The position numbers and the translations under genes were made by a program. DNA of 64,000 nucleotides, taken from assembly GCF_003334305.1 (NCBI RefSeq), contig NZ_QOWS01000011.1; one strand, 5' to 3'. The stretch's first letter is position 1. Each line of letters begins with the position of its first letter. This document shows, piece by piece, positions 8,045 to 9,945 of this stretch. Origin of the DNA: Escherichia coli (lineage in GTDB: Bacteria > Pseudomonadota > Gammaproteobacteria > Enterobacterales > Enterobacteriaceae). The notes below the pieces were generated by a model that was not told where the DNA came from, searched no databases, and saw only the letters and a program-made list of their open reading frames with translations.

Positions 8045-8848
8045 TCACCTTTCTGAAGTACTGGGCTGTTTTTGCCACGCGGTCATTGCAGAAAATGCGT
8101 GGGGAAAATGGCGGACAATCTGCGTAAAAAAGGACCGGGCTTGTTGAATGGGATAGAAGTGATCGCCGTCAATCACCACCGGGCCTGTAACGTGGCTCAG
8201 CCACTGACGCCAGGCATCGACCTGCTGCCAGGAGGCTTCGCGATCGTGGCTGCCGCACAATAACAGCGCAGGCGTGCGCAGCGGCGGACAGACGTCGGGC
8301 GAGTCGTAGTGATAGCTCTCGGTGGCGTAAAAATCAGCGCGCAGAAGAGGAAGAAACAGCGACATTAATTCCTGGTTTTCCCGCAGTTCAGGAGAACATC
8401 CGCCAATGTCTATCAGCTCAGCGATAAAGTCGGCATCATCGCGATGGCTGAGCTGGCGTTCAGAATGCAGATGCGGGGCATGGCACCCGGAAATAATCAG
8501 TCCTTGTGGCGCAAGCCCCCGTTGCTCCAGAAGTCGGCAGGTTTCAAACGCCACCTGCGCCCCCATGCTGTGCCCGGCGAGTAAAAGCGGCGTGTCAGGC
8601 GATACGGATGCTTCCAGCTCGTTCGCCAGCAGTGCCGCCAGTTGTGTAATGCTTCTGAGCGGTTCCAGATGGCGAAGGCGATCGCGCCCCGGCCAGGTCA
8701 CCAGAGAAAGCGCGCAATCAGCCAGTTGCTCAGCTTGCCAGTGGCGAAACGCGCTACTGCTGCCGCCAGCGAAAGGGCACATGACCAGATGCGCAGTATT
8801 GCCGTTCCGGGCGGGCCACAGCGGGATGCACATTGCAGATTGCGTCAC
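8045..8848 (-). CDS. ybtT: Type II thioesterase
   Basis: 267-aa ORF with GHSMG serine motif; ATGA start/stop overlap with ybtU. Confidence 0.9.
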   Translation of the reverse strand: MTQSAMCIPLWPARNGNTAHLVMCPFAGGSSSAFRHWQAEQLADCALSLVTWPGRDRLRHLEPLRSITQLAALLANELEASVSPDTPLLLAGHSMGAQVAFETCRLLEQRGLAPQGLIISGCHAPHLHSERQLSHRDDADFIAELIDIGGCSPELRENQELMSLFLPLLRADFYATESYHYDSPDVCPPLRTPALLLCGSHDREASWQQVDAWRQWLSHVTGPVVIDGDHFYPIQQARSFFTQIVRHFPHAFSAMTAWQKQPSTSER

Positions 8849-9945
8849 AGCGCCTCCTTATCATCATCGTTGTAGAAACCGGCTAACCGGTCGTGGTGCG
8901 GCGGCGTCAGGCGTCTGATCTCCGCATTGCCGGTCTTACGTAAAATCTGCTGCCATAAACGTGATAACGCGATCTGATGTACGCTTTGGCAGGCCGCTGG
9001 TGGATGTTCGCCCGCCAGATTGCTGCGCAACTGGTGTAGCAACCAGCTGACGCCCTCCGGCCCGACGGTTTCGCAGCAGTCGCGCCAGCTCAGGGGCGCC
9101 GCGCTGCGCATCAGACCCGGCAGATCGCGCAGGATCTCCGGTCTGCGGTAGAGGCTGTGGGCGTTCTCCTGATGGTCTGCGACAAACAGGCTGGATGACC
9201 AGATGACGGGGCCGTAGCTCGCCTCCAGCGAAAGATGACCTTCCGGCCAGCCCAGCAGCAGGCGGTGCATGATAAGGCTATGCATATCTGGATCGTCAGG
9301 ATCGAGATAGCGCTGAAGCAGCAGGCAGGCTTCTCCCTCCGGCCAGAAGAGTCTCAGACAGTGAAAATCGCTAAAGCTGCCAACCACGTCGCACTCCACG
9401 GCGGCGGCATCAACGCCCAGAGCCAGCAACAACAAATCCAGAGTGGAGTAGAGCAACTGTCGGCTGGTGGTGGCGTGGACTACCGGCGGCGTCTTAGCCA
9501 GGCAGCGACGCAGCTGCTGCGCATCGCGAAGCCATGTGCGTCCCGCGCGCGTATGCGGATAAAACGTGTTTACCCAATAGCAGCAGCCCTGTTCCTGCGC
9601 CAGCGTTTGTAAGGAACTGATGTCATCCGGGTGGAGGGGATGCTCCTGAATGACGTGTACGCCGCGCGTCAGAAAGTGTCTGGCAAGCTGCGTACCGGTT
9701 CCTCCGGCGACGGTCGAACGCACGACAATACAGGCGATATCCGGCATCCTGGTTATCTGTTCCGGCGAGGTATACAGCGGAATGCCAAACGCATGAGCCA
9801 GCTCTCTTGAACGGGCGCTTCCCTGCGCCAGCAGGCCGACCAGTTCCAGCCCCTCCGGGGGCTGCATAAAGGCATTCAGGTACATTTCGCCAAATTTGGC
9901 GCCCACAATCAGTACGCGTTGCTTTGGGGAGGCGGACGGCATCAT
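8845..9945 (-). CDS. ybtU: Thiazolinyl imide reductase
   Basis: 366 aa when started at the ATG at 9945, which overlaps the irp1 stop (ATGA); the longer 386-aa ORF in the track would overlap irp1 by 64 nt. Confidence 0.9.
   Translation of the reverse strand: MMPSASPKQRVLIVGAKFGEMYLNAFMQPPEGLELVGLLAQGSARSRELAHAFGIPLYTSPEQITRMPDIACIVVRSTVAGGTGTQLARHFLTRGVHVIQEHPLHPDDISSLQTLAQEQGCCYWVNTFYPHTRAGRTWLRDAQQLRRCLAKTPPVVHATTSRQLLYSTLDLLLLALGVDAAAVECDVVGSFSDFHCLRLFWPEGEACLLLQRYLDPDDPDMHSLIMHRLLLGWPEGHLSLEASYGPVIWSSSLFVADHQENAHSLYRRPEILRDLPGLMRSAAPLSWRDCCETVGPEGVSWLLHQLRSNLAGEHPPAACQSVHQIALSRLWQQILRKTGNAEIRRLTPPHHDRLAGFYNDDDKEAL

What the first reader, a model, noticed from the sequence alone, without database searches (positions are those of the whole stretch)
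8845..9945. Start/stop overlaps indicate translational coupling across both ybt operons
irp1/ybtU and ybtU/ybtT overlap as ATGA, ybtT and ybtE are 3 nt apart, ybtP/ybtQ overlap by 14 nt and ybtQ/ybtX by 8 nt. This also argues for the shorter ybtU, ybtQ and ybtX starts over the longer track ORFs.
Basis: seen in the sequence. Interest (0 to 1): 0.2.

Follow-up and report, generated by a model that had tools for sequence, protein, structure and literature searches.

The report
Tight gene junctions in yersiniabactin operons
The genes of the two yersiniabactin (iron-scavenger) operons on the E. coli high-pathogenicity island touch or overlap by a few bases; this is an ordinary, already annotated operon layout that probably links their translation, though nobody has tested that here.

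Summary
The window carries the E. coli high-pathogenicity island, 100% identical over ybtE-irp1 to a RefSeq chromosome. The reported junctions are real, with one error. irp1/ybtU is ATGA. ybtU/ybtT is GTGA, not ATGA. ybtT and ybtE are 3 nt apart. ybtP/ybtQ overlap by 14 nt and ybtQ/ybtX by 8 nt.

RefSeq uses exactly these starts. The shorter ybtU, ybtQ and ybtX starts are well supported. Close relatives have in-frame stops inside the ybtU and ybtQ extensions. The ybtX extension evolves under the ybtQ reading frame. Family profiles and solved-structure constructs begin at the short starts.

Across 65-68 related siderophore clusters from about 25 genera, the synthase/reductase junction is a 4-nt overlap in 53 of 65 loci. 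A Shine-Dalgarno motif usually lies inside the upstream gene. The ybtP/ybtQ orthologue junction overlaps in seven of eight loci.

Translational coupling by local reinitiation is a reasonable inference from published work on E. coli gene pairs. It is not demonstrated for ybt. Ribosome-binding sites are strong and predicted open, so independent initiation remains possible. The -14 overlap lies outside the usual window. The density of tight junctions is not unusual for E. coli (P about 0.1). Verdict: correct, ordinary, already known.

The parts
9942..9945 (-). irp1 stop / ybtU start overlap, ATGA. A second in-frame ATG lies at 9942-9940.
   Evidence: Read directly. RefSeq annotates irp1 and ybtU with a 4-nt overlap. 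A -4 overlap is present in 53 of 65 related loci.
9955..9958 (-). GGAG Shine-Dalgarno motif for ybtU, inside the irp1 coding sequence, 9 nt before the ATG.
   Evidence: Duplex energy -6.6 kcal/mol, in the top 9% of NTG sites in the ybt genes. An equivalent motif ranks in the top 10% in 16 of 24 representative loci (about one per genus).
8845..9945 (-). ybtU coding sequence (366 aa, thiazolinyl imide reductase). These are the coordinates of the finding.
   Evidence: RefSeq annotation. TIGR01761 match, 531 bits. PDB 4GMF/4GMG Irp3.
8845..8848 (-). ybtU stop / ybtT start overlap, GTGA (not ATGA).
   Evidence: Read directly. RefSeq annotates a 4-nt overlap. The overlap is unchanged in two E. coli junction variants and in S. 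diarizonae; it is GTGA in K. michiganensis and ATGA in K. oxytoca.
8853..8860 (-). TAAGGAGG, a full-consensus Shine-Dalgarno motif for ybtT, inside the ybtU coding sequence, 4 nt before the GTG.
   Evidence: Duplex energy -12.2 kcal/mol, top 0.3% of NTG sites.
8045..8848 (-). ybtT coding sequence (267 aa, type II thioesterase).
   Evidence: RefSeq. PDB 6BA8 YbtT.
8039..8051 (-). ybtT/ybtE junction: AAGGTGA (a Shine-Dalgarno-like motif that includes the ybtT TGA stop), CGC spacer, then the ybtE ATG.
   Evidence: Duplex energy -6.9 kcal/mol. RefSeq shows a 3-nt gap.
6464..8041 (-). ybtE coding sequence (525 aa, salicyl-AMP ligase).
   Evidence: RefSeq. Related to the adenylate-forming ligase families in NCBIfam; the best equivalog scores below its curated cutoff.
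26945..28747 (+). ybtP coding sequence (600-aa form).
   Evidence: ORF list. PDB 6P6I chain A is 600 aa and identical. RefSeq calls a 570-aa form that starts at 27035.
28734..28747 (+). ybtP/ybtQ 14-nt overlap (ybtQ ATG at 28734, ybtP TAA at 28745-28747).
   Evidence: RefSeq. Orthologue junctions are -14, -4, -8, -4, -4, -4, -1; an eighth locus has another gene inserted between the two.
28721..28730 (+). GAGGTGGTGG, a Shine-Dalgarno motif for ybtQ inside ybtP.
   Evidence: Duplex energy -12.1 kcal/mol, top 0.4%. This is the most accessible ribosome-binding window of all those tested.
28734..30536 (+). ybtQ coding sequence (600 aa, short start).
   Evidence: RefSeq. PDB 6P6I chain B starts MKDNNP. 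The long GTG start at 28707 is closed by a stop in L071.
30529..30536 (+). ybtQ/ybtX 8-nt overlap, ATGAGTGA.
   Evidence: RefSeq. The same octamer is present in L071 and L072.
30516..30519 (+). GGAG Shine-Dalgarno motif for ybtX inside ybtQ, 9 nt before the ATG.
   Evidence: Duplex energy -10.0 kcal/mol.
30529..31809 (+). ybtX coding sequence (426 aa, short start).
   Evidence: RefSeq. TIGR02718 profile position 1 aligns to residue 17 of the short form.

Best explanation
This is the known yersiniabactin locus of the Yersinia/E. coli high-pathogenicity island. It has two polycistronic operons, irp2-irp1-ybtUTE and ybtPQXS. The downstream genes start inside, or 3 nt after, the preceding gene, and each has a Shine-Dalgarno motif embedded in the 3' end of the upstream coding sequence.

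The most likely mechanism is local reinitiation. A ribosome terminating on irp1, ybtU, ybtT, ybtP or ybtQ is released next to, or a few bases past, the next start codon. With help from the embedded Shine-Dalgarno motif it reinitiates there. Synthesis of YbtU, YbtT and YbtE would then be tied to that of HMWP1, and synthesis of YbtQ and YbtX to that of YbtP. De novo initiation at these strong, open ribosome-binding sites probably adds to this.

What is shown: the junction geometry, the start sites, the embedded motifs and their conservation. What is inferred: that translation is actually coupled.
For: - Junction geometry was read directly and matches RefSeq.
- The operon structure is reported in the literature.
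- No promoter-like or terminator-like signal above chance lies at the junctions.
- Every downstream start has a Shine-Dalgarno motif in the top 0.3-9% of NTG sites in the ybt genes.
- The synthase/reductase junction is -4 in 53 of 65 loci from 16 genera and -1, -8 or -14 in most of the rest. This holds although the proteins are only 40-55% identical.
- The embedded Shine-Dalgarno motif ranks in the top 10% in 16 of 24 representative loci (about one per genus).
- ybtP/ybtQ orthologues overlap in seven of the eight loci examined. YbtPQ is a heterodimer.
- Short overlaps are enriched 4.5-fold among subunits of E. coli complexes.
- 13 of 14 native overlapping pairs tested were strictly coupled, and coupling is lost within about 20-40 nt.
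Against: - No experiment on ybt was found, and the original ybt papers are not in the library.
- The ribosome-binding windows are predicted to be more open than 77-100% of random windows in the same mRNAs, and three of the motifs are very strong. Ribosomes could therefore load independently.
- The -14 ybtP/ybtQ overlap is outside the -8..+6/+10 window used as a predictor.
- Conservation of ATGA does not need selection for coupling. All four bases belong to a start or a stop codon, so the arrangement is hard to leave.
- The ybtU/ybtT and ybtT/ybtE distances drift among genera, from -8 to +56 and from -1 to +20.
- The density of tight junctions is not unusual for E. coli (P about 0.10).
Confidence: 0.6

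Rival explanations
1. Compaction without functional coupling. The overlaps are the usual end state of operon gene packing, and each downstream gene is translated mainly by ribosomes that bind its own Shine-Dalgarno motif from solution. The ATGA and GTGA overlaps persist only because every base is part of a start or a stop codon.
For: Strong Shine-Dalgarno motifs at ybtT, ybtQ and ybtX. Open ribosome-binding windows. The ybtU/ybtT and ybtT/ybtE distances drift among genera. The density of tight junctions is not above the E. coli norm.
Against: In native E. coli and Haloferax pairs with such overlaps, downstream translation depended strictly on upstream translation in 13 of 14 cases. A ribosome terminating on the upstream gene covers the downstream start, so initiation there cannot be fully independent. 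The -4 overlap at the synthase/reductase junction is kept in 16 genera while the flanking sequence diverges.
Confidence: 0.28
2. Coupling by RNA unfolding. The downstream ribosome-binding sites are masked by mRNA structure and become available only when a ribosome translating the upstream gene melts that structure.
For: This is one of the two established models of coupling. It could apply to the -14 ybtP/ybtQ overlap, where the start lies further from the terminating ribosome.
Against: In 140-nt local folds, the -15..+5 windows of ybtU, ybtT, ybtE, ybtQ and ybtX are less paired than 77-100% of random windows in the same mRNAs. These are predictions only, and long-range pairing was not examined.
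Confidence: 0.08
3. The longer mechanical ORFs are the real genes: ybtU from TTG 10005, ybtQ from GTG 28707 and ybtX from TTG 30406. The overlaps with the upstream genes would then be 64, 41 and 131 nt.
For: These ORFs are open in the window. TTG 30406 has a Shine-Dalgarno-like sequence of -10.5 kcal/mol. The ybtX extension is also open in L071.
Against: Close relatives have in-frame stops in the ybtU and ybtQ extensions. The ybtX extension is 54% identical in its own frame but 79% in the ybtQ frame, with differences concentrated at ybtQ third positions. It is missing in L072 and L074. Family profiles start at the short N-termini. No homologue N-terminus extends that far. RefSeq and the PDB chains use the short forms.
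Confidence: 0.03

Closest known systems
Yersiniabactin locus of the Yersinia pestis / Y. enterocolitica / E. coli high-pathogenicity island (fyuA, irp2-irp1-ybtUTE, ybtA, ybtPQXS)
   Same: Same genes, order and strands. Insertion is next to tRNA-Asn. The ybtE-irp1 segment is 100% identical to an E. coli RefSeq chromosome and is present in 2267 of 5426 complete E. coli genomes. The four-operon structure is as published.
   Different: Nothing of substance. RefSeq calls ybtP 30 codons shorter than the 600-aa form used for the cryo-EM structure.
Native overlapping gene pairs of E. coli coupled by termination-reinitiation (Huber et al. 2019 and 2023, PMC6728339 and PMC10666635)
   Same: Co-directional pairs with -4, -8 or very short positive spacing and a Shine-Dalgarno motif inside the upstream gene. 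One ybt pair (YbtP/YbtQ) encodes subunits of a heteromeric complex, the class enriched among such pairs.
   Different: Coupling was measured for those pairs and not for ybt. ybtP/ybtQ overlap by 14 nt, outside their diagnostic window. The other ybt pairs are not known to form stable complexes.
Coat-lysis gene pairs of RNA phages fr and MS2 (-38 and -50 nt spacing)
   Same: A downstream start lies well upstream of the stop of the preceding gene and is still coupled. This is the precedent relevant to the -14 ybtP/ybtQ overlap.
   Different: Those are phage genes with long overlaps and a weak or masked start. ybtQ has a strong, open ribosome-binding site.
Related thiazoline-siderophore clusters (for example piscibactin in Vibrio/Photobacterium, photoxenobactin 'pxb' in Photorhabdus/Xenorhabdus, yersiniabactin-like clusters in Pseudomonas)
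   Same: The order synthase, reductase, thioesterase, adenylating enzyme is kept. The junctions are tight, most often with a -4 overlap at synthase/reductase. The cluster names come and from my own knowledge.
   Different: Proteins are only 40-55% identical. The thioesterase/ligase junction is -1 in Photorhabdus and Xenorhabdus and +4 to +20 elsewhere. Vibrio loci insert the salicylate synthase gene between them.

Membership tests
Yersiniabactin high-pathogenicity island locus | Gene set and order fyuA, ybtE, ybtT, ybtU, irp1, irp2, ybtA, ybtP, ybtQ, ybtX, ybtS, integrase, next to a tRNA-Asn gene | tested here: met
   ORF list. tRNA-Asn at 34759-34834. 100% identity to the annotated E. coli island.
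Yersiniabactin high-pathogenicity island locus | Proteins match the characterised Ybt proteins | tested here: met
   PDB chains of YbtU/Irp3, YbtT, YbtP and YbtQ match along their full length. TIGR01761 scores above its cutoff.
Gene pairs coupled by termination-reinitiation | Co-directional genes on one transcript | tested here: inconclusive
   Same strand, and no promoter- or terminator-like signal above chance at the junctions. The operon structure is taken from the literature. No transcript data were examined here.
Gene pairs coupled by termination-reinitiation | Stop-to-start distance within about -8 to +6 (or +10) nt | tested here: met
   -4, -4, +3 and -8 for four junctions. Not met for ybtP/ybtQ at -14.
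Gene pairs coupled by termination-reinitiation | Shine-Dalgarno motif for the downstream gene inside the upstream coding sequence (common but not obligatory) | tested here: met
   Duplex energies from -6.6 to -12.2 kcal/mol at all five starts. Conserved across genera at the irp1/ybtU junction.
Gene pairs coupled by termination-reinitiation | Translation of the downstream gene depends on translation of the upstream gene reaching its stop codon | not testable with these tools
   This needs reporter constructs with premature stop codons, or ribosome profiling. No published test on ybt was found.
Coupling by RNA unfolding | Downstream ribosome-binding site sequestered in secondary structure when the upstream gene is not translated | tested here: not met
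   Predicted unpaired probability of the -15..+5 windows is 0.49-0.82, against a background mean of 0.38. This is an in silico local fold only.

The most novel reading that the evidence does not exclude
The 4-nt overlap between the giant synthase gene (irp1 and its homologues) and the thiazolinyl reductase gene (ybtU) is kept in 16 genera while the neighbouring junctions drift. This could reflect selection for co-translational hand-off. The ribosome that has just finished the 3163-residue HMWP1 would immediately make the trans-acting reductase beside it, so that YbtU assembles onto its own synthase molecule in cis at a fixed 1:1 ratio. That would make the overlap a functional part of assembly-line biogenesis rather than mere compaction.
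Probability: 0.12. Interest if true: 0.4.

Novelty: already known. Interest (0 to 1): 0.1.

Why it matters
It matters little beyond annotation hygiene. The check confirms that the mechanical longest-ORF calls for ybtU, ybtQ and ybtX overshoot the real starts. It corrects one misread start codon (GTG for ybtT). It shows that tight junctions are a conserved trait of this family of siderophore clusters.

If coupling were demonstrated, it would explain how the small tailoring enzymes and the two halves of the YbtPQ importer are kept in proportion to the giant synthases. It would also warn that nonsense or frameshift mutations in irp1 or ybtP should reduce downstream proteins translationally as well as transcriptionally. 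That is relevant when interpreting mutants of this virulence locus.

Tried and rejected
- **Original ybt papers.** I tried to read Geoffroy 2000, Bearden 1997 and Perry & Fetherston 2011. None is held. I therefore cannot say from the text whether they already noted the overlaps. From memory they described the operons and probably these junctions.
- **Full-text searches.** Searches for ybt genes together with translational coupling or overlap found nothing relevant.
- **CsrA control at the junctions.** The published CsrA motif list for the island has sites within ybtT, irp1 and other genes, but none at these start sites. Dropped.
- **Variation among E. coli genomes.** The island is at least 99% identical in 2264 of 2267 genomes. 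The 441 genomes with a mismatch in the 65-nt ybtU/ybtT junction window carry, in the two examples read, changes downstream of the GTGA only. This was uninformative.
- **Known RNA elements.** The Rfam scan found none in the ybt region.
- **Promoters and terminators.** The scans found nothing above chance near the junctions.
- **Masked ribosome-binding sites.** Local folds looking for masking found the opposite.
- **ybtT starting at ATG 8833.** Considered and rejected: it has no Shine-Dalgarno motif (-2.1 kcal/mol), and the GTG/ATG at -4 is conserved.
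Full report
**What the window is.** The ORF map and a search of complete E. 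coli genomes show that positions about 4300-34800 carry the high-pathogenicity island. This island encodes the siderophore yersiniabactin. The segment 7900-10100 is 100% identical to E. coli FDAARGOS_497 and is present in 2267 of 5426 complete genomes. The island lies next to a tRNA-Asn gene at 34759-34834. On the minus strand the genes run irp2, irp1, ybtU, ybtT, ybtE, fyuA. On the plus strand they run ybtP, ybtQ, ybtX, ybtS. ybtA lies between the two sets. The finding's coordinates, 8845-9945, are exactly the ybtU coding sequence.

**Checking the observation.** I read every junction on the coding strand.
- irp1 ends with TGA at 9944-9942 and ybtU starts with ATG at 9945-9943, giving ATGA. 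A second in-frame ATG follows immediately (ATGATG).
- ybtU ends with TGA at 8847-8845.
- ybtT ends at 8045. Three bases (CGC) separate it from the ybtE ATG at 8041.
- The ybtQ ATG at 28734 lies 14 nt before the end of the ybtP stop (TAA 28745-28747).
- The ybtX ATG at 30529 and the ybtQ TGA at 30534-30536 form ATGAGTGA, an 8-nt overlap.

The other two same-strand junctions inside the operons are looser: irp2/irp1 at 87 nt and ybtX/ybtS at 27 nt. RefSeq's annotation of the identical chromosome gives the same five tight junctions.

**Are the short starts right?** Several independent lines say yes.
- *Close relatives.* A Raoultella island (94% identical over the 248 YbtU residues held for that locus) has a stop codon inside the 20-codon ybtU extension. 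A relative with 90% identical YbtQ has a stop inside the 9-codon ybtQ extension.
- *The ybtX extension.* The 41-codon extension stays open in that relative. However, it is 54% identical in its own frame and 79% in the ybtQ frame. Nucleotide differences fall 4/6/15 on ybtQ codon positions 1/2/3, so selection acts on ybtQ there. More distant loci have no such extension.
- *Family profiles.* The curated thiazolinyl imide reductase profile TIGR01761 begins at residue 6 of short YbtU. A siderophore-transporter profile begins at residue 17 of short YbtX; that match is below its curated cutoff, so it is only supportive.
- *Homologue N-termini.* Twenty YbtU homologues down to 44% identity all start within a few residues of the short start.
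- *Solved structures.* The YbtQ cryo-EM chain starts MKDNNP. The Irp3 crystal chains start at the second Met of YbtU.
- *Shine-Dalgarno motifs.* These lie in front of the short starts: GGAG for ybtU (-6.6 kcal/mol), TAAGGAGG for ybtT (-12.2), AAGGTGA for ybtE (-6.9), GAGGTGGTGG for ybtQ (-12.1) and GGAG for ybtX (-10.0). The background mean is -3.2 for all NTG triplets in the ybt genes. The long ybtU start (-2.5) and the ybtT ATG at 8833 (-2.1) have none. The long ybtX TTG does have a comparable score (-10.5), so for ybtX the argument rests on the comparative evidence.

**Conservation elsewhere.** A scan of one genome per species with a YbtU alignment returned 68 loci from about 25 genera. The order synthase, reductase, thioesterase, adenylating enzyme is kept in nearly all.
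- *Synthase/reductase junction.* A start codon overlaps the stop by 4 nt in 53 of the 65 loci scored, from 16 genera. These include Pseudomonas, Photorhabdus, Xenorhabdus, Erwinia, several Burkholderiales, Methylobacterium and Cupriavidus (where it is GTGA). The others are -1 (Proteus, Providencia, Roseospira), -8 (Vibrio, Photobacterium, Psychromonas), -14 (V. anguillarum and V. ordalii) and a few small positive gaps. The flanking sequence differs between genera, yet a GGAG-type motif 6-12 nt upstream ranks in the top 10% in 16 of 24 representative loci, about one per genus.
- *Reductase/thioesterase junction.* It varies more, mostly from -8 to +14.
- *Thioesterase/ligase junction.* It is -1 in Photorhabdus and Xenorhabdus, +3 in the island family and +4 to +20 elsewhere.
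- *Transporter operon.* Eight loci encoding YbtQ relatives of 56-90% identity have ybtP/ybtQ junctions of -14, -4, -8, -4, -4, -4 and -1. One has an extra gene inserted, with -4 on both sides. These last values partly rest on automatic gene calls, which favour such overlaps, but I checked the sequence contexts.

**Is it more than chance?** In E. coli, 707 of 2987 same-strand gene pairs (24%) lie between -8 and +6 nt. The -4 distance is the commonest, followed by -1 and -8. Four of the eight same-strand ybt junctions fall in that window, giving a binomial P of about 0.10. The layout is typical of E. coli operons, not exceptional. What goes beyond chance is the persistence of the overlaps over large evolutionary distance. 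There is a caveat: every base of ATGA belongs to a start or a stop codon. The arrangement is therefore hard to leave even without selection for coupling, whereas spacers can drift.

**Mechanism.** Two models of translational coupling are established. In the first, the terminating ribosome reinitiates locally. In the second, the upstream ribosome unfolds a masked ribosome-binding site. For native E. coli and Haloferax pairs with -4 or -1 overlaps, downstream translation depended strictly on upstream translation in 13 of 14 cases. Coupling fell by 40-80% at +14 nt and nearly vanished at +38 nt.

By analogy, reinitiation at the irp1/ybtU, ybtU/ybtT, ybtT/ybtE and ybtQ/ybtX junctions is the most likely reading. 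The -14 ybtP/ybtQ overlap is outside the usual window. Reinitiation at starts upstream of the stop has precedent in RNA phages, and orthologues have -4, -8 or -1 at this junction. YbtP and YbtQ form a heterodimer, the class of proteins enriched 4.5-fold among tightly spaced pairs.

Local folds argue against the unfolding model. The -15..+5 windows of all five starts are less paired than 77-100% of random windows of the same mRNAs. The same openness, together with the strong motifs, means that ribosomes could also load from solution. Coupling may therefore be partial. None of this has been measured for ybt. I put about 0.6 on real coupling, about 0.28 on essentially independent initiation, and little on the remaining alternatives.

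**Comparison with what is known.** The locus is the known island. The four-operon structure is published. The starts are those in RefSeq, and the phenomenon is textbook. The founding ybt papers could not be read here. From memory they described these operons, and I expect they noted the overlaps. The finding is correct and ordinary, with one letter wrong.

**Things seen in passing.**
- RefSeq starts ybtP at 27035 (570 aa), but the cryo-EM chain has 600 residues from ATG 26945. Residues conserved in homologues of about 55-80% YbtQ identity (the W..PVR motif) lie upstream of the RefSeq start. The 600-aa form therefore looks right.
- The island integrase is annotated with an ATT start.
- The irp2-irp1 spacer holds a 10-bp GC-rich hairpin without a U tract.
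- Databases hold apparent ybtU-ybtT and ybtQ-ybtX fusion proteins.
- The flank carries DsrA and RseX.

Noticed in passing
window 26945-27035 (+): RefSeq (PGAP) starts ybtP at 27035 (570 aa). The cryo-EM chain 6P6I_A is the 600-aa form starting at ATG 26945. Residues conserved in homologues from loci whose YbtQ is 57-80% identical (W17 and P22-V23-R24 of the 600-aa form) lie upstream of the RefSeq start, so the RefSeq start looks 30 codons too short. The 26945 ATG has only a weak Shine-Dalgarno motif (-4.3 against -7.7 kcal/mol).
   Followed up: partly
window 33335-34597 (-): The island integrase is annotated in RefSeq as 420 aa starting with a non-canonical ATT codon (ISLTDAKIR...). The window sequence is 100% identical. 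The mechanical ORF list therefore shows only a 347-aa ATG-initiated ORF. Whether the integrase is made from ATT is unknown.
   Followed up: partly
window 19469-19497 (-), within the 87-nt irp2-irp1 spacer: There is a perfect 10-bp GC-rich inverted repeat, GGAACGCCAT(cgcgaacgc)ATGGCGTTCC, between irp2 and irp1. It is not followed by a U tract. The fold of the spacer is -25.7 kcal/mol with a z-score of -1.8. It could be an mRNA-stabilising or processing hairpin, or a pause site. This is the one junction of the large operon that is clearly not set up for reinitiation.
   Followed up: partly
window 9940-9945 (-): ybtU begins ATGATG. RefSeq uses the first ATG (366 aa, -4 overlap). The Y. enterocolitica Irp3 crystal chain 4GMF starts at the second ATG (365 aa, -1 overlap, TGATG). 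Both ATGs are kept in the Salmonella, Klebsiella and Raoultella islands. Which one is used has not been determined.
   Followed up: partly
window 8842-8848 (-); PDB 6BA8: The deposited YbtT chain 6BA8 starts MMQSAM, whereas the window encodes M(GTG)-T-Q-S-A-M. The K. michiganensis and K. oxytoca islands do have ATG as codon 2 (TGATG). The E. coli variants I looked at keep ACG, so the PDB residue may be a cloning choice.
   Followed up: partly
proteins P0031, P0042, P0047, P0048 (580 aa) and P0155 (718 aa): Public protein sets contain apparent fusions. One group is 99% identical to YbtU and also carries thioesterase domains. Another joins the YbtQ ATPase to an MFS (YbtX-like) domain. These would arise easily from small indels at overlapping junctions, or they may be assembly or gene-calling artefacts.
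   Followed up: no
L071 7079-7083 compared with window 31809-31837: In the 90%-identical relative the ybtX/ybtS gap is 3 nt. In the window it is 27 nt. This junction is therefore tight in some lineages of the island family and loose in others.
   Followed up: no
window 53220-53306 (+) and 44795-44884 (-): The chromosomal flank carries the small RNAs DsrA (102.5 bits) and RseX (99 bits), and a tRNA-Ser at 35826-35915. This is consistent with the E. coli asnT region.
   Followed up: no
window 821-3718 (-): Downstream of fyuA lie ORFs that match the 'inverse autotransporter beta domain' gene and the frameshifted 'Ig-like domain' pseudogene of the reference strain. The right end of the island therefore abuts a degraded adhesin gene and not the mobility genes seen in Klebsiella elements.
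   Followed up: no
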